42,309 nucleotides of DNA from a virus. Taxonomy: Duplodnaviria > Heunggongvirae > Uroviricota > Caudoviricetes. A model generated the notes under the pieces. The model made no database searches. It saw only the letters and a list, made by a program, of their open reading frames with translations, and was not told the DNA's origin. Shown piece by piece: positions 1,689-41,301 of this stretch. The DNA is taken from the IMG/VR virus record IMGVR_UViG_638341085_000012; one strand, written 5' to 3'. Every line of letters starts with the position of its first letter. The stretch's first letter is position 1. The position numbers and the translations under genes are program-made.

Positions 1689-1703
1689 TGGTGTCCCCTG
1701 CAG
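1689..1703. repeat. attR core: 15-bp direct repeat identical to the 3' end of argW (tggtgtcccctgcag)
   Basis: Exact 15-mer identity with 41227..41241; flanks diverge on both sides. Confidence 0.8.
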
Positions 1704-1776: not shown

Positions 1777-1977
1777 TTACCCATTGGCGCGGCTTAAGAG
1801 CTTATTTTTGAATTCACAATGGTCACGATATAACCATCTTGCTCGTCCGTGGATAACTTTGGCTTTTGGCAGGTCGCCGGACTTAATCCGGTCGTAGATG
1901 AAGGTTTTACCGAAGCCAGTATCGGCCATGATGAATTTCAAATCAACCAGTGAATCAGGCTGTAGTTCGTGTTGCAT
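1777..1977 (-). CDS. torI: Excisionase / TorR inhibitor TorI (AlpA-like winged-helix DNA-binding protein), 66 aa
   Basis: 66-aa ORF MQHELQPDSLVDLKFIMADTGFGKTFIYDRIKSGDLPKAKVIHGRARWLYRDHCEFKNKLLSRANG matches recalled KplE1 TorI; lies beside attR at the end opposite the integrase. Confidence 0.8.
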   Translation of the reverse strand: MQHELQPDSLVDLKFIMADTGFGKTFIYDRIKSGDLPKAKVIHGRARWLYRDHCEFKNKLLSRANG

Positions 1978-8249: not shown

Positions 8250-9602
<1,353 letters not shown>

Positions 9603-13540: not shown

Positions 13541-14064
13541 CTATCAAATCAAATACGCCAGCACACGACAAGGACTGCTGGCAAACGCCGCTTTGGCTTT
13601 TTGATGCACTGGATATTGAGTTTGGATTCTGGCTGGATTCGGCAGCGAGCGACAAAAATGCTCTGTGCGCTCACTGGCTAACTGAGGCTGACGACGCGCT
13701 AAATTCTGAGTGGATAAGCCACGGTGCAATCTGGAATAACCCACCGTACAGCAATATCAGGCCGTGGGTGGAAAAAGCCGCTGAGCAGTGCATACAACAG
13801 CGACAGCCGGTAGTGATGCTTGTGCCAGAGGATATGTCTGTCGGATGGTTCAGCAAGGCTCTGGAGAGTGTTGACGAAGTTCGCATTATCACTGATGGAC
13901 GGATTAATTTTATCGAACCATCGACGGGGCTGGAGAAGAAGGGAAACAGCAAAGGCTCCATGCTGCTGATTTGGCGACCATTCATCAGTCCTCGACGGAT
14001 GTTTACTACCGTATCCAAAGCGGCATTGATGGCGATCGGGCAGGGTGTCAGGAGGGCTGCATGA
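13537..14064 (+). CDS. Phage Dam-like DNA N6-adenine methyltransferase, 175 aa
   Basis: NPPY catalytic motif (IWNNPPYSN); ATGA overlaps with the ninB stop and the ninC start. Confidence 0.75.
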   Translation: MTIKSNTPAHDKDCWQTPLWLFDALDIEFGFWLDSAASDKNALCAHWLTEADDALNSEWISHGAIWNNPPYSNIRPWVEKAAEQCIQQRQPVVMLVPEDMSVGWFSKALESVDEVRIITDGRINFIEPSTGLEKKGNSKGSMLLIWRPFISPRRMFTTVSKAALMAIGQGVRRAA

Positions 14065-14933
14065 TAAATGTCGTTAGTTTCTCAGGTGGCAGGACGTCAG
14101 CATATTTGCTCTGGCTAATGGAGCAAAAGCGACGGGCAGGTGAAGACGTGCATTACGTTTTCATGGATACAGGTTGTGAACATCCAATGACATATCGGTT
14201 TGTCAGGGAAGTTGTGAAGTTCTGGGATATACCGCTCACCGTATTGCAGGTTGATATCAACCCGGAGCTTGGACAGCCAAATGGTTATACGGTATGGGAA
14301 CCAAAGGATATTCAGACGCGAATGCCTGTTCTGAAGCCATTTATCGATATGGTAAAGAAATATGGCACTCCATACGTCGGCGGCGCGTTCTGCACTGACA
14401 GATTAAAACTCGTTCCCTTCACCAAATACTGTGATGACCATTTCGGGCGAGGGAATTACACCACGTGGATTGGCATCAGAGCTGATGAACCGAAGCGGCT
14501 AAAGCCAAAGCCTGGAATCAGATATCTTGCTGAACTGTCAGACTTTGAGAAGGAAGATATCCTCGCATGGTGGAAGCAACAACCATTCGATTTGCAAATA
14601 CCGGAACATCTCGGTAACTGCATATTCTGCATTAAAAAATCAACGCAAAAAATCGGACTTGCCTGCAAAGATGAGGAGGGATTGCAGCGTGTTTTTAATG
14701 AGGTCATCACGGGATCCCATGTGCGTGACGGACATCGGGAAACGCCAAAGGAGATTATGTACCGAGGAAGAATGTCGCTGGACGGTATCGCGAAAATGTA
14801 TTCAGAAAATGATTATCAAGCCCTGTATCAGGACATGGTACGAGCTAAAAGATTCGATACCGGCTCTTGTTCTGAGTCATGCGAAATATTTGGAGGGCAG
14901 CTTGATTTCGACTTCGGGAGGGAAGCTGCATGA
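14061..14933 (+). CDS. ninC: NinC-like PAPS-reductase-fold protein, 290 aa
   Basis: PP-loop SFSGGRTS near the N-terminus; size and position as lambda NinC. Confidence 0.75.
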
Positions 14934-21593: not shown

Positions 21594-22334
21594 ATGCATC
21601 AAAACTTAGCCAACGCAACATTTCAGGTCATTGCAGGTGATTCTCGTGGTAGCGGGTTCAGTTTCATGCGAGAAAACCTAGTTGTAACTAACTTGCATGT
21701 TGTGGCCACCTGTTGTGACTTACAAACCAAGTGTCAAATCAATGACGTCATTCTTCAAACTGAAGCAAATGAGAGTATCGACGCTAAAATTTTGTATGTT
21801 GATGGTAGTAACGACTTTGCTATCATGCAATTGCAATCCCCCCTTCCTGGCGGAAGAACAGTCCTTCAACCATCTGCTGGGTTTGCTCCATCCAGGGGCA
21901 GAAAAGTAATTTTTGCAGGATACCCGCATGGGATACCTCTGTTACTAACAAGTGAGGCAATTATTTCAGCACCGATGGAGCATGGCCGATTTACGCTTGA
22001 TGGAATGGTTAATGGGGGGAACTCAGGAGGACCTATTATTGATCGAGATTCGGGAGAGTTAGTAGGTATCGTCACCCAGCGTAGATATATAATGGGCGAT
22101 CAGGCTGATGCTTTCAGCCAAGAAATAGCCCAACTGCGACAATATCTTTCTTCAGCAAGTCTGCATAGAAGTGTTGAGATCATGGGTGTTAATTTCGGGC
22201 AAATGGCGGACATGTTTGGTAGATCGCTACAGATTGTTTCGGACATGATGTCGCAGAATGCTAACTCCGGAATTGGTATTGGATTTTCAATCCAGCCCAT
22301 CGTTGATGTGATCACATCTTTCCCTACGAAATAA
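21594..22334 (+). CDS. Trypsin-like (S1/chymotrypsin-fold) serine protease domain protein, 246 aa
   Basis: Catalytic triad in canonical order: H in VVTNLHVV, D in NDFAIMQL, S in GNSGGPII; GGAGG 7 nt upstream; own downstream terminator. Confidence 0.7.
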   Translation: MHQNLANATFQVIAGDSRGSGFSFMRENLVVTNLHVVATCCDLQTKCQINDVILQTEANESIDAKILYVDGSNDFAIMQLQSPLPGGRTVLQPSAGFAPSRGRKVIFAGYPHGIPLLLTSEAIISAPMEHGRFTLDGMVNGGNSGGPIIDRDSGELVGIVTQRRYIMGDQADAFSQEIAQLRQYLSSASLHRSVEIMGVNFGQMADMFGRSLQIVSDMMSQNANSGIGIGFSIQPIVDVITSFPTK

Positions 22335-32319: not shown

Positions 32320-33012
32320 ATGTTATATGCATTTAAGCTGGGCAGAAAACTGCGCGGCGAGGAACCTTATTGCCCTGAAAAAGGCGGGAAAGGTGGCAGT
32401 TCTGATAAAAGCGCAAAGTATGCCGCAGAAGCTCAGAAGTATGCAGCAGACCTGCAAAATCAGCAGTGGCAGACGATCATGAAAAACCTTGCTCCGTTCA
32501 CGCCTCTTGCGGAGCAGTATGTTAACCAGCTTCAGAACCTTTCCAGTTTAGAAGGTCAGGGGCAGGCACTTAATCAGTATTACAACTCTCAGCAGTATAA
32601 AGACCTTGCAGGTCAGGCTCGTTACCAGAGTCTTGCTGCTGCGGAGGCTACGGGAGGACTTGGTTCGACAGCCACAAGCAATCAACTGGCTACGATCGCG
32701 CCGACTCTCGGTCAGTCTTGGTTATCAAACCAGATGAGCAATTACAACAATCTGGCAAACGTTGGGCTTGGTGCTCTGCAAGGTCAGGCAAACGCCGGGC
32801 AGACGTACGCCAACAACATGAGCAGCATTGCACAGCAAAGCGCAGCTCTTGCCGCTGCTAATGCCAACAAACCATCAAGTCTTCAGACAGCAATTAGTGG
32901 CGGAACGTCTGGTGCGATTGCCGGTGCAGGTCTTGCCAGCCTTTTGGGAACATCAACACCTTGGGGCGCTGGCATTGGTGCTGGTATCGGATTGCTTGGT
33001 TCGTTGTTTTAA
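32320..33012 (+). CDS. Ejection protein (P22 gp7-like), 230 aa
   Basis: Synteny; Gln/Ala/Gly-rich with hydrophobic C-terminus; size matches gp7. Confidence 0.6.
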   Translation: MLYAFKLGRKLRGEEPYCPEKGGKGGSSDKSAKYAAEAQKYAADLQNQQWQTIMKNLAPFTPLAEQYVNQLQNLSSLEGQGQALNQYYNSQQYKDLAGQARYQSLAAAEATGGLGSTATSNQLATIAPTLGQSWLSNQMSNYNNLANVGLGALQGQANAGQTYANNMSSIAQQSAALAAANANKPSSLQTAISGGTSGAIAGAGLASLLGTSTPWGAGIGAGIGLLGSLF

Positions 33013-33021
33013 GGGGTAATC

Positions 33022-34410
33022 ATGGCTACTTGGCAAGGATCAAATGGCGGATTGTTGGCTGGTATCGGCGGCGTCAACTCAAACGCTCCGAGCGTAAATG
33101 ACATCGGCAATACGCTTCAGCTTATCAGGCAGAACAATGATATTGAGCGTTCAGGCGCTAACAATGTTGGGCTGACTGCTTTGCAAGGCCTTTCAGGTAT
33201 TGCGGGGGTGTTTCAGCAGGAAAAGCAGGCTCAGCGGCAGAAAGAATTTCAGCAGGCATACGCTAATGCTTATGCGTCTGGTGATCGCGGTGCTTTGCGT
33301 CAGTTGGCTACTCAATATCCAGACCAGATTGAATCCGTTCGTAAAGGCATGGGATTCATTGATGAAGACCAGCGCAATTCTATCGGCACCTTAGCGGCTG
33401 GCGCACGCCTTGCGGCCTCGTCTCCAGAAGCAATGCAATCATGGCTGCAAAACAACGCCAATGAGCTGGCGCGCGTCGGTGTTGACCCTAATAACGTTGC
33501 TCAGATGTATCAGCAGAATCCTTCAGGATTTGGTGAGTTTGTTGATCACCTTGGGATGGCTGCTCTTGGTCCTATTGATTACTTCAATGTTCAGGACAAG
33601 ATGGCAGGTCGTGAGATTGACCGAGGCAGGCTGGCAGAGACAATCCGCAGCAATCAGGCTGGCGAGGCGCTAACAGCACGAGGCCAGAACATCACGATGC
33701 GCGGTCAGGACTTATCTGCTTCTACTGCGAGACGCGGGCAGGATTTGGCAATGCAGCGAGCGTCAACAAGAGGAACCGCTGGGAATGATGAGCGTACAGT
33801 TCAGTTATCAGATGGCAGAACTGTAACGGTAGGCGGGAAACTTCACGGCGCTGGGGCTAATGCGTTCTACGAAGGCATCGACAACGAGGGGAATATGGTT
33901 CGCGTTCCTGCCAGTTCAATCGCAGCGCCTGCAACATCGTCTGCATCAGCACAAAACTATGCCATGAAGAAGGATATCGACGCGATCGCAAATGCAGATG
34001 CTTCTGCTCTCGATTTCATGACAGGAATGACCGGCGGCGCAGGTAACCCGGCAATTGGTGCTGATGTTCGCAGCCGATTAACAGGAAAAGAGCAGCGCCA
34101 GTTATATAACTCAGCACAACGTATTCAGGGCAGAATGCAGAATCAGGGTGTGGCGGCAGCAAGGGACATGGGTGCCAGTGGTATTAACACCGTTGCAGAA
34201 GCGAAGATGTATTTTCAGGGGATGCCGCAGGTTGACTATTCAAGTCCGGAGGCTATGCAGCAGTCGATTCGTGAAATTCAGGAATACACCAACAATTACA
34301 ACCAACAATATAACGTTAATGTTGGTAAATCTCAGCGGAAGCAATCTCAACCTGCACAGGTATCACAGCCAGCAGCCAGCAGTAACTTTTCTTCACTATG
34401 GGGTGATTAA
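33022..34410 (+). CDS. Ejection protein (P22 gp20-like), 462 aa
   Basis: Synteny and size. Confidence 0.6.
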
Positions 34411-36407
34411 TGGCTAAAGCATGGAAAGATGTTATCGCCTCTCCACAGTATCAGGCGTTAGCACCAGAACAAAAAGCGCAGGCTCAGGAGCAATACTTCA
34501 ATGAAGTCGTGGCCCCGCAAGCCGGAGAAAATGCAGAGCAGGCTAAGCAAGCTTTCTATGCTGCCTATCCATTGCCATCTGTGCAGCCAGTGGATACACA
34601 ACAACCAGTAGCACAGCAACAACCACAGCAAAGTGGATTTATGTCTGATCTTGGTGAAGCAGTAAAAGAGACTGGTCGTGGACTGGTGCAGGCTGGCGTG
34701 AACGTGGCAAACATACCTGCATCAGTTGCCGATGCTGTAACAAGCGCGGCGGCTTGGGCTGGCGGTAAACTCGGCATTGGCGATGGTACATATCAACCAG
34801 CGCCACGAGTAACAACGCAGGGATTAGAGCAGGACTTTGGCCTTCAGCAAGGTGCGCTGACTCCACAAACGACAGAGGGAAGGGTATTTGCTGAAGCATT
34901 GCCTTACCTCACTCCTGCTGGCGTTGAGAGAGCGGCGGTACAGGCACCAACACTTGCTGGTCGAATTGCTCAGGGGGCAACTCGCCTTCTCGCAGAAAAC
35001 GCAGTTGGATCACTTGCTGCAAACAGTATGAAAGATGATGCGGAAGCACTCGCTACCGATTTAGGCGTTGGTGTGCTGGCTGGCGGTGCTATTAACGCTG
35101 CCGGACGTGGATTAGGTGCTGCTTATCGTGGCGTTCGTGGTGCTATTGCGCCAGAAGCGCAGCAGGCTATCAGATTTGCAGAGCGTGAAGGAGTTCCTCT
35201 GCACACAACAGACCTGTTACAACCAACTTCCCGCGTCGGAAAAATGGCGCAGACTACAGCAGAAAATATCCCTCTGGCTGGAACAAGCGGAATGAGAGCA
35301 ACGCAACAGGAAGCGAGAAGCCAGTTGGTGCAGAGATTTGCCGATAAATTCGGTGAGTATGATCCAGCGGTTGTTATTGACAGCCTTAAAGCGAAAACAT
35401 CAGGAATTCGGCGTGCCGCCGGTAATCGACTGGAGCAGGTTCAGAATGCTATGGCTGGAGTAAACATTCAGCCTGCGCGAGCAATTCAGCAGATTGATAC
35501 TGAGATATCTAATCTGCAGAAGCTTGGTAAGGTGGCTGATAACGAGACTATTTCAAAACTTCAGTCCTATCGTGATGAGCTTGTTCGCAATGCTGGTCCT
35601 GATGGTCCGGTAAATCTGGATTTGAAGCAATTAAGCGATCTGCGCAGCCAGTTCAGAATGGACGTGAAGGGGGAACGACCAGTGTTACCAAACCGTTCCG
35701 ATGCTGCCATTCAGCGCGTTTACAAGGCAATGACAGACGATATCAATGGTGCCATTGGTCAGAATCTTGGCAACGATACTCTTCGTAAATATCAGCAGGC
35801 CAATGCCGTCTACGCTGACGAAGCGGCGAAACTAAAGAATACCAGGCTGAAGAATGTTCTCATGAAAGGCGACCTGACGCCGGAAGTTGTCAACAACATG
35901 CTATTCAGCAAGAACAAATCGGAAATTAAGACGCTGTATAACTCAGTTGGTCGTGTTGGCAGGGCGCAAATGCGCAATGGCATCATTGGAAAGGCGATGG
36001 AGAAATCAGGTGGTTCCCCTGACCAGTTCCTTCGACAGCTTAACACCCTGCAAAACCAGACTGGCATCACATTTAAGGGGCAGGACGCTGCTTATCTGAA
36101 AGGATTGAAAAATTACCTTCAGTCCACTCAGCAGGCAGCAAAAGCGGCAGTAACAACACCAACAGGGCAGCAAACCATCCCGTTCATTATCGGGTATGGG
36201 ACGGCAATGAACCCGGCGACAACTGGCGCAGCAGTAAGCTACGGACTTCTTACTCGCGCCTATGAGAGCGAATCATTCAGAAATGCAATGCTCCGAATGG
36301 CAAACACCCCACGCGGATCAACAGCGTTTGAGAAAGCCATGCAGCAGGCGCAGAAGGCCATTAACGCCCTGACTCAAGGTGCCAAGTCTGATGCGTTGTC
36401 AGAATAG
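34410..36407 (+). CDS. Ejection protein (P22 gp16-like), 665 aa
   Basis: Synteny and size. Confidence 0.6.
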   Translation: MAKAWKDVIASPQYQALAPEQKAQAQEQYFNEVVAPQAGENAEQAKQAFYAAYPLPSVQPVDTQQPVAQQQPQQSGFMSDLGEAVKETGRGLVQAGVNVANIPASVADAVTSAAAWAGGKLGIGDGTYQPAPRVTTQGLEQDFGLQQGALTPQTTEGRVFAEALPYLTPAGVERAAVQAPTLAGRIAQGATRLLAENAVGSLAANSMKDDAEALATDLGVGVLAGGAINAAGRGLGAAYRGVRGAIAPEAQQAIRFAEREGVPLHTTDLLQPTSRVGKMAQTTAENIPLAGTSGMRATQQEARSQLVQRFADKFGEYDPAVVIDSLKAKTSGIRRAAGNRLEQVQNAMAGVNIQPARAIQQIDTEISNLQKLGKVADNETISKLQSYRDELVRNAGPDGPVNLDLKQLSDLRSQFRMDVKGERPVLPNRSDAAIQRVYKAMTDDINGAIGQNLGNDTLRKYQQANAVYADEAAKLKNTRLKNVLMKGDLTPEVVNNMLFSKNKSEIKTLYNSVGRVGRAQMRNGIIGKAMEKSGGSPDQFLRQLNTLQNQTGITFKGQDAAYLKGLKNYLQSTQQAAKAAVTTPTGQQTIPFIIGYGTAMNPATTGAAVSYGLLTRAYESESFRNAMLRMANTPRGSTAFEKAMQQAQKAINALTQGAKSDALSE

Positions 36408-36497: not shown

Positions 36498-36983
36498 TTA
36501 TCTTATGTTACTGCTACTGTTGCATGTTACTGTATTCCCAAACCCTGAATTGCAGTTTGTGTAAGTGTCAACGCGTGTTGGATAGGGTTGAGTTATAACA
36601 GGCTGTCTCGCTTTTTGCTCGATCGCTTGCATTGTGTTTACAGCCTGATAATTCAATAAAGCCTGCTGGAATGCTTGGCTTTGCGCTATTTGTTGGGCTT
36701 GTTCTTGGCTTTGTAATTGAACATAAAGATTTTGAAGCTCAAGTCTTGCCTGTACGTCACTTATCTTACCTTCATCAACGCCTTGCCCGAGCATCTTTGC
36801 AGCAAGGACATACAGCTTAGGTGTTGGTGCAGATGCCATGCGTGAGTCGTTCTTCACACTGGCATCAAGGCAATTAGCCATATCGCTAAGCCTTTGATAG
36901 CGTTGTTCGCAACTTGCTTGATAGTCACTTACTTTTGCGCATCCAACCAGCAGAAGCGGGATAATTAACAGTGATTTTTTCAT
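36498..36983 (-). CDS. Lipoprotein of unknown function, 161 aa
   Basis: Signal peptide with lipobox MKKSLLIIPLLLVGC; AGGAG SD; downstream of mnt in the same orientation; Gln-rich C-terminal half. Confidence 0.6.
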   Translation of the reverse strand: MKKSLLIIPLLLVGCAKVSDYQASCEQRYQRLSDMANCLDASVKNDSRMASAPTPKLYVLAAKMLGQGVDEGKISDVQARLELQNLYVQLQSQEQAQQIAQSQAFQQALLNYQAVNTMQAIEQKARQPVITQPYPTRVDTYTNCNSGFGNTVTCNSSSNIR

Positions 36984-37053
36984 ATGGTTAACTCTCCTTA
37001 GTTTTTCACAGGATATCATGAAGGCAATGCCATTTTATCCGGAAACTAGATTT

Positions 37054-37353
37054 CTATGTTTCCTTTTTATTATTGCTATACATGGTCTTAAGCGTTTCAA
37101 AAACCATTTTCTTAACCATATCAGATTGTTGTTCTGCCATACGCTCTGCATCGTCAATGTAAACTGATGCAGAGCTTTGTTTATCCAATGATTCTTCAAT
37201 CGCTGCAATTATCTCTGAGTTCAGCGACCTGTTATTCATCTTCGCACGCTGCTTAATTTTCGCGTGGAGTTCATGCGGAAGTCTCAAGTGAAACTGCGCC
37301 TCGTCGTATTTGCTGTACATCCTTGATGCCTCACCAGTTGGGTGGAATGGCAT
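37054..37353 (-). CDS. mnt: Mnt-like ribbon-helix-helix repressor, 99 aa
   Basis: FHLRLPHELHAKIKQRAKMNNRSLNSEIIAAIEESL and C-terminal DDAERMAEQQSDMVKKMVFETLK resemble recalled P22 Mnt. Confidence 0.7.
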   Translation of the reverse strand: MPFHPTGEASRMYSKYDEAQFHLRLPHELHAKIKQRAKMNNRSLNSEIIAAIEESLDKQSSASVYIDDAERMAEQQSDMVKKMVFETLKTMYSNNKKET

Positions 37354-37441
37354 CGTAACTTACTGGATAAATACTCAATAGTACCATTTCGGTATGCAAT
37401 CACATCATGGTTGCATCATATCATTCGTCTGGAGCAATGAA

Positions 37442-39826
37442 ATGTCAGATATCACCGCAAATGTTGTGGTAAGCATGCCTTCTCAACTCTTCACTATGGC
37501 TCGTTCTTTTAAAGCGGTTGCCAATGGCAAAATTTATATCGGTAAAATTGACACTGACCCGGTAAATCCTGAAAACCAGATTCAGGTTTATGTGGAAAAC
37601 GAAGACGGTTCTCAAGTTCCTGTTTCTCAACCAATCATCATTAACGCTGCTGGTTATCCGGTATATAACGGACAGATTGCCAAATTCGTTACCGTGCAAG
37701 GCCATTCTATGGCTGTTTATGATGCATATGGTGCTAAGCAGTTCTATTTTCCTAATGTGCTGAAGTATGATCCATCATCAAAGTTTTCCTACCTTGATAT
37801 AAACTTATTAAATCTTTGGGATAAATACAGTAAACTTCCTGGATATAATTTAATTGGATATTTCAAACCAGGAGTAACAATAAATAACCCATGCGATGTT
37901 GTATTTCATCTTGATAGCGCAACCGTTTATAGATATACAGCAACCATACCGCACACCATAACCAGTGATGAAGAACCATCAGGATTTTGGCTGCCAGTAA
38001 AAGAAGGCATTGAAGCTGCATCTTCTGATGATATGACGAGGCTGATATCAGAGGGGCATTACATCATTGATAAAAATGCCGACTTTATCATTCCAGGACA
38101 AATAACCAACTCATATAATAGGGCGGATAGAAGTTTTTCTGATGGATATCAATATCGCTACGGCGGAATAAAACATCAGAAACAACCGTTCGGAGTTTTT
38201 GAAGATGCATGTGTTTTTACAGCAGTGGCTGCTACTCGTGAAGCTGAGCATTTCACTGGTATTTTAGGTGCTGGAACTGGGCAATCATTAGCGCAATATG
38301 GCAGTGTCGATACTTCAGCCACGTATTTCGAAAACACAGCATTACCTCCAGTATATACGATAACTGGCGCTACTTTTAACTCAACAGGGGCATCAGGCAT
38401 CAATATTGACACAAAAAAAATTAAGCTGAATATGGTTGCGGTAGTTATCGGAACATCACAAACATGGTTTGGTCTTATTCGCTCCTTTAATTCGTCAAGT
38501 ATCACTGTTGATGGGTGGTATGAAAAAACTTCAGGAACCTTGAGCATACCGTCAGGCACTCTTTATATCTCGCCAGTATATCGTGTATGGGGGAATAATA
38601 CTGTAGTAACAATTCCTGAAAATTCTTCTGCTTCATCTGCAGTTGGCATGGAGGTCATGCTTAATTTGTATAAGGATGGAAGTGGTATTGATAGTCAAGT
38701 TTATAAAGCGATAAATAATAATGCGTTTAATCCCGATGAGATTGTGGATAGCGCATACCAGGCGGTAGGTAAGTTTGGCAAGGCGCATGATGTCTGGCCT
38801 GGTTCGACATATTCTTATCGTTCATGGGGTGCTACATCATATGGGTTCTTCTCAGACCACGATCAGTCCGGTATCAAAATTCTAACCCCTAATGATGCCG
38901 CTTTTGTACTGGCATCACAGGTAGGGGGTGTCGGGGCGGAGACTAACGTGCTGATTATCGACCCCGCTGGAAGTATCATACAAACAAACCAGAAAGCGGT
39001 AAATGAAGTGGCTGCGCAGTTTGGGGCAAACGGAGCTTCTGGGGTGACAATACGTCAGCAGTCAGGTGGTGGAGCAAGTAACACAGACGCTGTTATGTAT
39101 GTTGGCGCGTCAACAGAGACAGGCAGAAGTATAAACTGCGCTGGAACTATTAACACTTCAGGTGCTGACTACGCGGAATACGTGGAAAAATCTGAAGCTT
39201 GTGGATGTATTTCACCTGGTGATATTTGTGGAATTAACTCAGCCGGGAAAATAACTGATAAATTTGATGATTCAATAAGATTCGTTATTAAGAGCACAGA
39301 ACCAAGCATGGTTGGAGGAGATACTTGGTCTTCTCTTGAACGCCCAAAATATCCAAGCGAAGAGTGGGTAGCCTGGGACAAAGCCATTCGTAAAAAAAAG
39401 CCAAACAAACCAGACAAAAAAATAATTAATAATCTGATTAAGGGTGGTGTTGATGAGGATGAAGCAAAAAAACAATATTCAAAAATGATGGAGTCATACC
39501 AAAAGGAACATGAGCTATGGTCAATAACTATTGATTCTCTAATGAAATCAGAACCTAGTAAAGAGAGCAAAGAATATAAGGAATGGTTGAGAAAAACAGA
39601 GGAAATTCGCAGAAATTTTGACAGAGTTGCTTTCTGTGGTCGAGTCCCTGTAAATGTTAAAGGAGGAAAGCCAGGAGATTATTTAATACCAATCAAGGGT
39701 GGCGATGGTAAGATAAGTGGTTGCTTTGTATCTAATCCAGATTTCAATCAATTTAAATTGTCAGTAGGCAGGGTTTGGAATGTTGATAATCATGGGTTGG
39801 TAACTGTTTCTGTATTAATGATCTAG
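37442..39826 (+). CDS. Tailspike protein: P22 gp9-type N-terminal particle-binding domain fused to an unrelated receptor-binding region, 794 aa
   Basis: First ~115 aa ([43 protein letters not shown]...[13 protein letters not shown]...VLKYDP) match the recalled P22 tailspike head-binding domain; GGAG SD before ATG 37442. Confidence 0.85.
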
Positions 39827-39852
39827 AAATTTTATTTTAAACTGAGACAAAC

Positions 39853-39880
39853 AAAGCCTTGCACTGGATTGCAAGGCTTT
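39853..39880. terminator. Bidirectional rho-independent terminator between tailspike and integrase
   Basis: AAAGCCTTGCA-CTGGAT-TGCAAGGCTTT with T/A-rich flanks on both strands. Confidence 0.6.
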
Positions 39881-39907
39881 GTGCTCTTCGATAGTGGTTA
39901 AGGAGGA

Positions 39908-41065
39908 TTACTCCACCTTCCCATCAAGCCAGTCCGCCCACCACTGCATCATTTCTCTGCGCTTATCGAGATACTGAGCATGGTTGTAAATCCCACGCAC
40001 AGATCCGCCGTTGGCATGTGCCAGTTGCACTTCAATAGCGTCAGCAGGCCATTCGTGCTCGTTCATAATCGTGCTGAATTCATGCCTGAATCCGTGACCG
40101 CTTTCCAGACCTTCATAGCCGATTTGTTTGATCACAAGCAGTACAGCGTTCTCGCAAATTGGCTTCTTCTTATCGTTGCGCCCGGCAAAAACAAACTCTG
40201 ATACTGGTTTGGTGATTGAGCTTAGCGTAGTGAGAAGTTCAACTACCTGGTCTGACATAGGAACCACATGAATTTTGCGTCCCTTCATCACACTGGCGTC
40301 GATGGTGATAATCCTGTTTTCAAAATCGACGTTCTTCCATAGCATGGAACGAAGCTCTTTCGTTCTTAGGGCTGTGTAGCGTAAAACTTTGGTCGCAATG
40401 AGCGATACGATACTTCCTGAAAATGTTGCCAGTGCTTTGTTGAATGCCGGGATCTGGTCTGCAGGAAGAAACGGGAAGTTCTTCTTGCGGTATCCCTTCA
40501 TGGCGTCAGCAAGGTCAGGTGCCGGGTTATATTTAGCCCTACCAGTGACAATAGCGTAACGGAAAACCTCGCCGCATCTTCTGCGGGCTTTGTTGGCTCG
40601 CTCCATTGCACCTCGATCTTCAAATCTGCGGATTACTTCCAGCAGTTGCATCGGCTCAATATCCTGAATTTCAAGGCCGCCGATGATAGGTAAAATGTCG
40701 TCATCAAACATTTTTGCAAGTTCATTTGCATAGCCTACTGACCAGACTTGCTTCTTGTGCTCGTACCATTCCTTGTAAATGGCGCTAAAGGAATTGTTGT
40801 TAGACGAAGCCTTTTTCGCCTTTACCGGATCGATGCCAACCGAGATGTCTTTCCTCGCAGTCCATGCTTTATCCCTTGCCTCCTGCAAAGTAATAAGCGG
40901 ATATTTTCCGACGGTCAGGATTTTCTCCTTACCGTCAATCTTGTAGCGAAGCTGCCATACCTTTTTCCCTGACACAGGGACATAAAGGTACAGGCCATTA
41001 CCATCGAGTAGGCGGTATGGTTTTTCTTTCGGCTTTGCTGCTTCAATCTGCTTAACGGTGAGCAT
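39908..41065 (-). CDS. intS: Tyrosine integrase IntS (KplE1/CPS-53 type), 385 aa
   Basis: Matches recalled E. coli IntS from MLTVKQIEAAKPKEKPYRLLDGNGLYLYVP...; the ORF could extend 12 codons upstream to 41101; adjacent to argW. Confidence 0.9.
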   Translation of the reverse strand: MLTVKQIEAAKPKEKPYRLLDGNGLYLYVPVSGKKVWQLRYKIDGKEKILTVGKYPLITLQEARDKAWTARKDISVGIDPVKAKKASSNNNSFSAIYKEWYEHKKQVWSVGYANELAKMFDDDILPIIGGLEIQDIEPMQLLEVIRRFEDRGAMERANKARRRCGEVFRYAIVTGRAKYNPAPDLADAMKGYRKKNFPFLPADQIPAFNKALATFSGSIVSLIATKVLRYTALRTKELRSMLWKNVDFENRIITIDASVMKGRKIHVVPMSDQVVELLTTLSSITKPVSEFVFAGRNDKKKPICENAVLLVIKQIGYEGLESGHGFRHEFSTIMNEHEWPADAIEVQLAHANGGSVRGIYNHAQYLDKRREMMQWWADWLDGKVE

Positions 41066-41226
41066 GGGTAAAAATCCGGTGGGTAAAATTATTTTATCCA
41101 CTTTTTACCCGTCATGGAGTGCGGCTGTCAACGATCTGACGCGAACCATTACGAACTGTGAATCTACGGAAGGCTTGATATTCAGGGGATTTTGCGGACT
41201 GGTACGGATGGGAGCGAACTGATAAA

Positions 41227-41241
41227 TGGTGTCCCCTGCAG
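41227..41241. repeat. attL core: 15-bp direct repeat (3' end of argW)
   Basis: Identical to 1689..1703. Confidence 0.8.
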
Positions 41242-41301
41242 GAATCGAACCTGCAATTAGCCCTTAGGAGGGGCTCGTTATATCCATTTAACTAAGAGGA
41301 C
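41227..41301 (-). tRNA. argW: tRNA-Arg (anticodon CCU), 75 nt
   Basis: Reverse complement reads GTCCTCTTAGTTAAATGGATATAACGAGCCCCTCCTAAGGGCTAATTGCAGGTTCGATTCCTGCAGGGGACACCA. Confidence 0.9.

What the first reader, a model, noticed from the sequence alone, without database searches (positions are those of the whole stretch)
36498..37353. mnt-like repressor plus lipoprotein operon at an immI-like position with no arc/ant
A P22 Mnt homologue (ribbon-helix-helix) is followed on the same strand by a 161-aa lipoprotein (lipobox LLLVGC, Gln-rich C-terminus), wedged between the ejection-protein genes and the tailspike. In P22, Mnt controls the antirepressor, but no arc or ant gene is present here. Mnt is made in lysogens, so the co-transcribed lipoprotein is a candidate lysogenic-conversion or exclusion factor, for example blocking DNA entry of related phages.
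Basis: partly seen in the sequence, partly recalled or inferred. Interest (0 to 1): 0.5.

Follow-up and report, generated by a model that had tools for sequence, protein, structure and literature searches.

The report
Prophage lipoprotein in the sieA slot
In this P22-like E. coli prophage, an unrelated, uncharacterised lipoprotein gene sits next to an Mnt repressor gene exactly where phage P22 keeps its injection-blocking gene sieA and behind the same start signals, which makes it a testable candidate phage-exclusion protein of unproven function.

Summary
On the minus strand, between the gp16-like ejection gene and the tailspike, lie an Mnt homologue (47% identical to P22 Mnt) and a 161-aa lipoprotein gene. 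There is no arc or ant.

An mnt without arc or ant is already described. This region is the hypervariable "ant moron" of P22-like phages, and phages L and ST64T also carry only mnt.

The new point concerns the lipoprotein. It occupies the sieA slot precisely. Its 29-nt leader and ribosome-binding site match the leader of P22 sieA at 25 of 29 positions, and similarity ends right after AAGGAG. No SieA was found in any locus that carries the lipoprotein. SieA is a three-transmembrane inner-membrane protein; this protein has only a lipoprotein signal peptide.

The family is confined to this slot in P22-like prophages of at least ten enterobacterial genera. It is under strong purifying selection (dN/dS 0.05). 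It occurs in 185 of 5426 complete E. coli genomes, against 56 with sieA.

A 96%-identical orthologue in strain LF82 is transcribed from the prophage while late genes are silent.

My best reading is a prophage-expressed envelope lipoprotein that excludes P22-like phages (confidence 0.45). Function is untested, and no fold or sequence relative is informative.

The parts
34410..36407 (+). gp16-like ejection (DNA transfer) protein gene. Its 3' end converges on the lipoprotein gene. Context, not part of the moron.
   Evidence: phrog_770 'DNA transfer protein', E 3e-238. 33% identical to P22 gp16. Every lipoprotein locus checked has a convergent gp16-type gene, of at least 5 sequence types.
36498..36983 (-). 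Lipoprotein gene, 161 aa. It has a signal peptide with lipobox LLVG|C15 and Ala at +2. Residues 17-96 form a helical domain containing Cys25 and Cys38. Residues 84-128 are Gln-rich. A C-terminal Cys144...Cys154 hairpin motif follows.
   Evidence: phrog_6067, unknown function, E 8e-110. No Pfam, NCBIfam or PADLOC hit. dN/dS 0.053.
36994..37022 (-). Leader shared with sieA genes: TTCATGATATCCTGTGAAAAACTAAGGAG. It contains a possible extended -10, TGATATCCT (37018-37010), and the ribosome-binding site AAGGAG (36999-36994).
   Evidence: 25 of 29 positions identical to the region upstream of P22 sieA that overlaps the annotated putative PsieA. The block also lies upstream of E. coli HS sieA type B and of lipoprotein genes in four other mosaic contexts. 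Coordinates.
37054..37320 (-). mnt-like repressor gene: a ribbon-helix-helix domain plus the Mnt C-terminal tetramerisation helix. 88 aa from M12; the ORF is open up to 37353.
37352..37378 (-). P22-equivalent Pmnt: -35 TTGAGT (37378-37373) and -10 TACGAT (37357-37352), with a short 15-nt spacer. Inferred, not shown.
   Evidence: Aligned by position with the annotated P22 Pmnt (-35 TTGAGA, -10 TATCAT). Not reported by the consensus scan, which requires a 16-18 nt spacer.
37380..37396 (.). Candidate Mnt operator AGTACCATTTCGGTATG, with core TACC-N5-GGTA. The left arm is perfect and the right arm is degenerate.
   Evidence: It lies at the same distance (58-63 nt) from the mnt ATG as the P22 Omnt. 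The operator sequence changes together with the Mnt recognition strand: PHFNFR / AGGTCCAC; PQFNLR / AAGACCAC; QFHLR / AGTACCAT (perfect 8+1+8 in Serratia). The core occurs once in 42 kb, against 0.13 expected.
37394..37416 (.). Second near-palindrome ATGCAATCACATCATGGTTGCAT (9+5+9, 8 of 9 positions pair), just upstream of the tailspike ribosome-binding site. Role unknown.
   Evidence: I4. Conserved in E. coli relatives and perfect in L055. Absent from VSe13 and Serratia.
37442..39826 (+). Tailspike gene, the right border of the moron.
   Evidence: PF09008 Head_binding, E 1.3e-65.

Best explanation
The region 36498-37441 is this prophage's version of the P22 'ant moron', reduced to two genes.

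Mnt is a self-contained repressor with one operator in the prophage, in its own promoter region 45 nt upstream of the tailspike gene. With no ant to control, it most likely sets its own level. It may also set the level of transcription running out of that intergenic region in both directions.

The lipoprotein gene is an alternative cassette to sieA. It is plugged in behind the same leader and ribosome-binding site. In this window it probably also receives read-through from the mnt promoter. It is transcribed from the prophage while the late genes are off.

The protein would be exported, lipidated at Cys15, and sent to the inner face of the outer membrane, because residue +2 is Ala.

Inferred step: like SieA, it protects the lysogen against superinfecting P22-like phages. 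It would act one compartment further out, at the outer membrane or periplasm. Possible modes are hindering assembly or passage of the gp7/gp20/gp16 ejection conduit, or hindering the cell-wall-cutting step of gp16 types that carry a transglycosylase domain.

Shown: gene identity, position, shared leader, conservation, purifying selection, and transcription of an orthologue. Inferred: localisation, the target, and exclusion itself.
For: 1. Slot. The gene always converges on the 3' end of the gp16 homologue. In 73 of 82 loci the two 3' ends are within 100 nt, and this holds across at least 5 gp16 sequence types. Family members only 25-30% identical sit in the same place. So do homologues in Morganella, Serratia and Xenorhabdus.

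2. Cassette swap. The leader is 25/29 identical to that of P22 sieA, and similarity stops right after AAGGAG. E. coli HS sieA type B has the same block. In the L081/L065 class the upstream sequence is P22-like for more than 100 nt. Some loci keep the P22-type mnt-arc-ant-orf59a set and differ only by carrying the lipoprotein in place of sieA (O104:H4).

3. Mutual exclusion. No SieA type A or B was found in about 100 lipoprotein loci or in the window.

4. SieA biology. SieA is prophage-expressed from its own putative promoter, sits in the inner membrane, and blocks DNA injection by P22-like phages (PMC10883804).

5. Expression. LF82_138 (96% identical) is the second most transcribed Gally gene in LB after the repressor: 70 against a median of 15.6. 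It reaches log2 10.3 in macrophages while the injection genes stay at 2.3-4.

6. Envelope protein. It has a lipobox and no other hydrophobic segment. Residue +2 is never Asp in 201 family members. Cys25, Cys38 and Cys154 are invariant in 39 homologues, which fits periplasmic disulfides.

7. Function retained. dN/dS is 0.053. The gene is in 185 of 5426 E. coli genomes, against 35 with sieA type A and 21 with type B.
Against: - There is no experiment on this protein.
- The structure model is only partly confident: pLDDT 81-88 for residues 18-96 and below 50 after residue 118.
- The slot is a general cargo site that also takes unrelated genes, for example a second lipoprotein in Gally. Position alone does not fix function, and the shared leader could simply mark a recombination junction.
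- The LF82 authors did not score the gene as a moron, because 4.5x fell under their 5x cut-off.
- The whole right end of Gally, including the tailspike, rises in macrophages. That could equally point to a host-adaptation role or to regional de-silencing.
- The LF82 orthologue has a different upstream sequence beyond the ribosome-binding site, so its expression does not prove that the window's promoter is active.
- There is no similarity to ejection proteins that would suggest a decoy.
Confidence: 0.45

Rival explanations
1. Host-fitness (lysogenic conversion) lipoprotein. It would be an envelope protein that helps the lysogen in particular environments, such as serum, macrophages or envelope stress. 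It would compare with lambda Bor or plasmid TraT and have no role against phages.
For: - Transcript rises about 16-fold in macrophages compared with LB in LF82.
- The gene is present in pathogens: O104:H4 C227-11 and the adherent-invasive strain LF82.
- It is an outer-membrane-type lipoprotein like Bor.
- The region is AT-rich, GC 0.38-0.45, which would fit environment-dependent silencing.
Against: - The family was found only in P22-like prophages, in the one slot beside gp16. This includes Xenorhabdus, Pectobacterium, Tatumella, Yersinia and Morganella, which have very different lifestyles. A general fitness gene would be expected on other phage types or on chromosomes.
- It replaces sieA rather than adding to it.
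- There is no homology to Bor, Iss or TraT.
Confidence: 0.25
2. Receptor-masking exclusion of the Cor/Llp type. The lipoprotein would bind the periplasmic side of an outer-membrane protein that phages need, such as OmpA or OmpC for Sf6-like phages, or FhuA or BtuB for unrelated phages. It would block adsorption or triggering rather than the ejection conduit.
For: - It has the same protein class and the same predicted location as Cor and Llp (Cor and Llp from established knowledge).
- The same allele sits next to at least 5 gp16 types. This is easier to explain if the target is a host protein.
- There is a weak PHROG hit to Cor.
Against: - The Cor hit has E 0.038 and covers only the signal peptide, residues 1-30.
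- No structural similarity was found.
- The tight association with the ejection-gene end of P22-like genomes and the swap with sieA point to the injection step.
Confidence: 0.12
3. A function in the phage's own lytic cycle. Examples would be protecting the producing cell from re-infection late in infection, or modulating envelope breakdown. Prophage expression would be incidental.
For: - P22 sieA is reported to be up-regulated during induction, and the leader is shared.
- The gene lies inside the late region.
Against: - It is on the strand opposite to the late operon.
- It is transcribed in LB and in macrophages when late genes are silent.
- The lysis genes lie elsewhere, around 18.8-20 kb.
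- It is absent from many functional P22-like phages such as P22, L, Sf6 and Sf101.
Confidence: 0.06
4. A decaying remnant. Mnt without ant, and the neighbouring ORF, would be leftovers of a degraded immI region with no current function.
For: Phage L's mnt-like gene has been suggested to be a possible remnant. The Pant-like promoter is degenerate here, and no plus-strand promoter-like site was found. The right operator arm is imperfect.
Against: - dN/dS is 0.053 for the lipoprotein.
- The mnt-then-lipoprotein tandem is intact in 105 E. coli genomes and recurs in Serratia, Tatumella and Providencia with diverged sequences.
- The Mnt recognition residues and the operator change together across lineages.
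- The orthologue is transcribed.
Confidence: 0.02

Closest known systems
P22 SieA superinfection exclusion protein (types A, B and C; Leavitt et al. 2024, PMC10883804)
   Same: - Same genomic slot: between the gene 16 and gene 9 homologues, on the strand opposite to the late operon.
- Same leader and ribosome-binding block.
- Similar size (161 aa against 162-164 aa).
- Envelope location.
- Prophage expression (shown for SieA; shown for an orthologue here).
- Mutually exclusive in the loci sampled.
   Different: There is no sequence similarity (BLASTP E 1.7). SieA has three or four transmembrane helices and sits in the inner membrane, with the cytoplasmic motif FxRYPxEAxxFNK. This protein has only a cleavable lipoprotein signal peptide, no such motif, and is predicted to sit in the outer membrane. 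Its function is untested.
P22 immI region / 'ant moron' of P22-like phages (Villafane et al. 2008, PMC2629481)
   Same: Same location and same logic. mnt is transcribed away from the tailspike, with its operator and promoter in the mnt-proximal intergenic region. The region is highly mosaic. mnt-only versions are already known (L, ST64T, ST104).
   Different: arc, ant, sar, orf59a and the mnt terminator are absent. The Pant equivalent is degenerate. The operator has a different sequence (TACC core rather than GTCC). The gene partnered with mnt is the lipoprotein.
Cor (phi80, N15, HK022) and Llp (T5): outer-membrane lipoproteins that exclude phages by blocking FhuA
   Same: Small phage-encoded lipoproteins expressed to protect the cell, acting from the periplasmic side of the outer membrane.
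   Different: No homology beyond the signal peptide. No known receptor target. Different phage group. A much more restricted genomic position.
Ltp of Streptococcus thermophilus phage TP-J34: a lipoprotein that blocks DNA injection by binding the tape measure protein
   Same: A prophage-expressed lipoprotein that stops DNA injection by targeting an ejected phage protein. This is the closest precedent for the proposed mode of action.
Lambda Bor / Iss lipoprotein
   Same: A prophage moron that encodes an outer-membrane lipoprotein expressed in lysogens.
   Different: No homology. Bor lies in a different genome region and acts on serum resistance.

Membership tests
Mnt repressor (Arc/MetJ ribbon-helix-helix superfamily) | N-terminal ribbon-helix-helix DNA-binding domain | tested here: met
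   PF03869, E 1.2e-14, residues 18-60. 47% identity to P22 Mnt.
Mnt repressor (Arc/MetJ ribbon-helix-helix superfamily) | C-terminal Mnt tetramerisation helix | tested here: met
   PF11423 Repressor_Mnt, E 3.9e-12, residues 68-92.
Mnt repressor (Arc/MetJ ribbon-helix-helix superfamily) | Two-fold symmetric operator next to its own promoter, at the P22 Omnt position | tested here: inconclusive
   AGTACCATTTCGGTATG lies at 37380-37396, at the P22-equivalent distance. The sequence changes together with the recognition strand across lineages. Only the 4-bp cores are symmetric in this window, and binding was not tested.
Mnt repressor (Arc/MetJ ribbon-helix-helix superfamily) | Controls an antirepressor (ant) operon | tested here: not met
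   There is no arc or ant in the window, and no plus-strand promoter-like site in the intergenic region.
SieA | Integral inner-membrane protein with three or more transmembrane helices | tested here: not met
   No 19-residue window reaches mean hydropathy 1.6 (maximum 1.45, in the signal peptide). SieA types A and B have three or four such segments.
SieA | Conserved motif FxRYPxEAxxFNK and detectable sequence similarity | tested here: not met
   BLASTP E 1.7. The motif is absent. It is present in the E. coli HS protein used as a control.
SieA | Gene between the gene 16 and gene 9 homologues of a P22-like prophage, on the anti-late strand, with its own leader | tested here: met
SieA | Blocks DNA injection by P22-like phages | not testable with these tools
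   This needs plating and potassium-efflux assays.
Bacterial lipoprotein (signal peptidase II substrate) | Signal peptide ending in a lipobox [LVI][ASTVI][GAS]C | tested here: met
   The sequence is MKKSLLIIPLLLVG|C15. The Cys is invariant in 39 homologues and at least 90% conserved in 46 distant ones.
Bacterial lipoprotein (signal peptidase II substrate) | Outer-membrane sorting: no Asp at +2 | tested here: met
   Residue +2 is Ala here. In 201 family members it is A, V, S, T, G, L or Q, and never D. Actual localisation was not tested.
Cor/Llp-type exclusion lipoproteins | Homology to Cor or Llp | tested here: not met
   phrog_1119 Cor, E 0.038, covers the signal peptide only. No fold match.
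Moron (autonomously expressed prophage cargo gene) | Transcribed from the prophage while neighbouring lytic genes are off | tested here: inconclusive
   This is met for the 96%-identical LF82 orthologue: 4.5x background in LB, and much higher in cell-culture and macrophage conditions. There are no data for this window's arrangement. The promoter is only inferred.

The most novel reading that the evidence does not exclude
The lipoprotein would found a new family of superinfection-exclusion proteins, evolved as an interchangeable alternative to SieA. It would stop the P22-type ejection-protein conduit at the outer membrane or periplasm instead of at the inner membrane. In E. coli it is about three times more common than SieA. 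That would make it the main injection-blocking device of P22-like prophages in that species, and a second, independent probe of how gp7, gp20 and gp16 cross the envelope.
Probability: 0.35. Interest if true: 0.65.

Novelty: new variant of a known kind. Interest (0 to 1): 0.45.

Why it matters
How short-tailed phages build a channel across two membranes from ejected proteins is still unclear. SieA is so far the only studied protein thought to block that step in short-tailed phages.

An unrelated envelope protein that evolution has swapped into the same expression site would give a second genetic handle on the process. Escape mutants should map its target.

It would also explain part of the phage resistance of the roughly 3% of E. 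coli genomes that carry it, which include the O104:H4 outbreak strain and the Crohn's-associated strain LF82.

If it turns out instead to be a host-adaptation factor induced in macrophages, that would matter for those pathogens.

The Mnt part is ordinary. It mainly shows that Mnt persists, and co-evolves with its operator, without an antirepressor to control.

Tried and rejected
- Homology of the lipoprotein to SieA types A and B: none.
- Family libraries: Pfam, NCBIfam and PADLOC give nothing, and PHROGs gives only an unknown-function family.
- PDB sequence search with a profile: nothing below E 0.7.
- Decoy idea, meaning similarity to gp7, gp20, gp16, the needle or the tailspike: none.
- Profile search of 1.84 billion representatives: 238 relatives, all unannotated small lipoproteins with the same architecture. 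A second word-indexed search added only 10 proteins.
- Literature searches for the protein accessions, the PHROG number, or a lipoprotein at this position: nothing.
- Intrinsic terminator between mnt and the lipoprotein gene: none. There is only a hairpin without a U-run.
- A Pant-like promoter reading into the tailspike: not detectable.
- Other copies of the operator in the prophage: none.
- Rfam: only the tRNA.
- The longer ORF starts (37353 for mnt, 37019 for the lipoprotein) were considered and rejected.
Full report
**What the window is.**
The window holds a complete P22-like (Lederbergvirus-type) prophage in an E. coli chromosome.
- A LacY-type transporter gene lies at the left end. tRNA-Arg(CCT) and a formate/nitrite-transporter-family gene lie at the right end.
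- A 15-nt copy of the tRNA 3' end is at 1689-1703.
- The right part reads: gp7-like (32320-33012), gp20-like (33022-34410, PF16928), gp16-like (34410-36407, phrog_770), the two genes of the finding on the opposite strand, tailspike (37442-39826, PF09008), and integrase (39908-41101).

- The upstream gene is an Mnt homologue. It hits Pfam Arc (1.2e-14) and Repressor_Mnt (3.9e-12) and is 47% identical to P22 Mnt.
- Its likely start is M12 at 37320, giving 88 aa.
  - GGTGAGG lies 8 nt upstream.
  - The first ATG of the ORF lies inside the P22-equivalent Pmnt -10.
  - In Serratia relatives the equivalent upstream ATG is out of frame.
  - PGAP aa.
- The downstream gene (36498-36983) encodes MKKSLLIIPLLLVG|C..., with AAGGAG 10 nt before the ATG.
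  - The lipobox Cys is invariant.
  - Nothing else in the protein is hydrophobic enough to span a membrane.
  - Gln makes up 15 of the 45 residues 84-128.
- The 70-nt gap between the genes has a hairpin but no terminator.
- Arc, Ant and SieA types A and B are absent from the whole window.

**What is already known about the place.**
- In P22 the order is: 16, then sieA (own putative promoter), a terminator, orf59a and mnt on the opposite strand, then Pant/Pmnt with the Arc and Mnt operators, then arc, ant and gene 9.
- Villafane et al. named this the "ant moron". They showed ten types in sixteen genomes, including versions with only mnt plus one unknown gene.
- Phage L has only a diverged mnt and orf62.
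- So an Mnt without arc or ant is a described variant, not a surprise.

**The Mnt operator.**
I aligned the regions upstream of mnt from P22, Gally, Sf101, VSe13, Serratia prophages and the window. I then tabulated all loci.
- A palindrome sits 58-63 nt from the mnt ATG in each lineage, and it changes with the recognition strand of the protein:
  - PHFNFR with AGGTCCACGGTGGACCT (the annotated P22 operator);
  - PQFNLR with AAGACCAC(A/G)GTGGTC;
  - QFHLR with AGTACCATAATGGTACT (perfect in Serratia).
- The window's Mnt has QFHLR, and its site is AGTACCATTTCGGTATG (37380-37396). The left arm is perfect. The right arm keeps only the GGTA core.
- TACC-N5-GGTA occurs once in the 42 kb, against 0.13 expected. 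No other operator-like site exists.
- The P22-equivalent Pmnt is TTGAGT, 15 nt, TACGAT. The Pant equivalent is degenerate, and the scan finds no plus-strand promoter there.
- Mnt therefore appears to be an autoregulator left without its classical target. I infer that it also influences transcription leaving this intergenic region, including read-through into the lipoprotein gene.

**The lipoprotein is the interesting part.**
It has no Pfam, NCBIfam or PADLOC match and belongs to PHROG 6067 (unknown function).

*Distribution.*
- Close homologues (50-98% identical) occur in Escherichia, Salmonella phages, Citrobacter, Serratia, Cronobacter, Klebsiella aerogenes, Pectobacterium, Yersinia, Morganella, Proteus, Providencia, Xenorhabdus and Tatumella. 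All are unnamed or misnamed.
- A profile search of 1.84 billion representatives finds 238 relatives. All share one architecture: a lipobox, a helical domain with a Cys pair, a variable linker, and a C-terminal T-x-C...G...C motif.

*Position.*
- Wherever context could be read, the gene lies between the gp16 homologue and the tailspike of a P22-like prophage, converging on gp16.
- This holds for Morganella (alone, no mnt), Serratia (mnt 17 nt upstream), Xenorhabdus, and Serratia fonticola and a metagenomic member at 25-30% identity.
- It also holds for 80 IMG/VR loci.
- The same 97-100% allele sits next to at least five gp16 sequence types.
- The rest of the moron is mosaic:
  - mnt directly upstream with a 70-nt gap, as in the window, in 42 loci;
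  - P22-type mnt plus orf59a;
  - a full mnt-arc-ant-orf59a set, also in O104:H4 C227-11;
  - another lipoprotein in between, as in Gally.

*The cassette swap.*
- The sequence upstream of P22 sieA reads ...TTTTTTCATGGTATCCTGCACAAAACTAAGGAG followed by GTTGGTGTG.
- The window reads TTCATGATATCCTGTGAAAAACTAAGGAG followed by AGTTAACCATATG (37022-36994).
- This is 25 of 29 identical, and similarity ends right after the ribosome-binding site.
- E. coli HS sieA type B carries the same ...CTGCTCAAAACTAAGGAG block. In one class of loci the upstream region is P22-like for more than 100 nt, yet the ORF is the lipoprotein.
- Three different ORFs are thus exchanged behind one leader.
- No SieA was found in any lipoprotein locus.
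- Among 5426 complete E. coli genomes, 1166 have a gp7-like gene, 185 have the lipoprotein, 35 have sieA type A and 21 have sieA type B.

*Is it a working, expressed gene?*
- Across 56 alleles dN/dS is 0.053, and no segment is relaxed.
- Prophage Gally of strain LF82 carries a 96%-identical copy (LF82_138, GALLYPH_13).
- In the published RNA-seq table it has 70 normalised reads in LB, against a prophage median of 15.6. That makes it second only to the C2 repressor (727). It fell just under the authors' 5x cut-off, so they called Gally moron-free.
- It reaches log2 8 in the B1/B6 samples and 10.3 in macrophages at 1 h, while the injection genes stay at 2.3-4.
- In LB, mnt is at background. Expression there is therefore independent of mnt.
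- Caveat: Gally's upstream sequence differs from the window's beyond the ribosome-binding site.

*Structure and location.*
- AlphaFold2 with 39 sequences gives a confident helical bundle for residues 18-96 (pLDDT 81-88) and low confidence afterwards.
- Residue +2 is Ala, and never Asp in 201 relatives. By the established +2 sorting rule this predicts the outer membrane.
- Cys25, Cys38 and Cys154 are invariant, and Cys144 lies near Cys154. This fits two periplasmic disulfides.
- There is no similarity to ejection proteins.

**Interpretation.**
- Firmly supported: this is a conserved, selected, prophage-transcribed envelope lipoprotein that serves as the alternative occupant of the sieA expression site.
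- Inferred: it does what SieA does, namely exclude P22-like phages at DNA delivery, but from the outer membrane or periplasm.
[quoted passage not shown] It works against very diverse ejection proteins. The lack of coupling between this lipoprotein and any gp16 type is therefore compatible with that reading.
- I put the exclusion reading at 0.45.
- The main rival is a host-adaptation role, suggested by the macrophage induction (0.25). The family's confinement to one slot of one phage group across hosts of very different lifestyles argues against it.
- Other rivals are Cor-like receptor masking (0.12), a lytic-cycle role (0.06) and a decaying remnant (0.02).

**Verdict.**
The finding is real. 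Novelty lies in a new, common, uncharacterised variant of a known kind of prophage cargo. Interest is moderate (0.45), and higher (0.65) if exclusion is confirmed.

Noticed in passing
window 37394-37416: A 23-bp near-palindrome, ATGCAATCACATCATGGTTGCAT, lies between the candidate Mnt operator and the tailspike ribosome-binding site. It is conserved in E. coli mnt-tailspike junctions (perfect in L055) but absent from VSe13 and Serratia. It could be a second protein site or an RNA hairpin affecting tailspike expression.
   Followed up: partly
window 1689-1703, 1997-2012 and 41227-41301: The 3' 30 nt of tRNA-Arg(CCT) reappear at the left prophage end as two pieces 293 bp apart. A small ORF (1777-1977, minus strand) lies between them, with a weak HTH_17 (excisionase-type) hit, E 0.008. 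The integrase lies at the other end, next to the tailspike, so the attachment site appears to sit between xis and int.
   Followed up: partly
window 39827-39907: There are no O-antigen modification genes (gtr or acyltransferase) between the tailspike and the integrase. Close relatives (Sf101, JNE082640, Morganella prophages) have one there.
   Followed up: no
window 21594-22334: A trypsin-like serine peptidase ORF (PF13365, E 2.6e-20) lies between the Rha-like regulator gene and the terminase genes. This is an unusual cargo gene for that position.
   Followed up: no
window 13971-14933: A PAPS-reductase-like ORF (PF01507; phrog_33262/424) lies in the nin region.
   Followed up: no
window 8250-8726: A 158-aa ORF (phrog_2651, unknown function) lies directly downstream of the CI-like repressor gene on the same strand. 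It overlaps that gene's 3' end in the mechanical ORF list. This is the rexAB-like position for prophage-expressed genes.
   Followed up: no
L002 4219-4638 (phage Gally gene 14, LF82_139): A second, unrelated lipoprotein (MKRIIGVVAGAILLSGC..., phrog_6823) lies in the same moron between the lipoprotein gene and mnt. It is even more strongly transcribed in LF82, at log2 about 10-11 outside LB.
   Followed up: partly
L003 3474-3767 (Sf101 gp14); PHROG 795; Cronobacter proteins P0022, P0107-P0109: These look like annotation errors that are propagating. Mnt homologues are labelled 'partition protein ATPase', and lipoprotein homologues are labelled 'type II secretion system protein GspK'.
   Followed up: no
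window 36850-38200: GC content falls from about 0.50 in the ejection genes to 0.38-0.43 in mnt and the 5' half of the tailspike gene. This fits a separately acquired module and possible silencing in rich medium.
   Followed up: no
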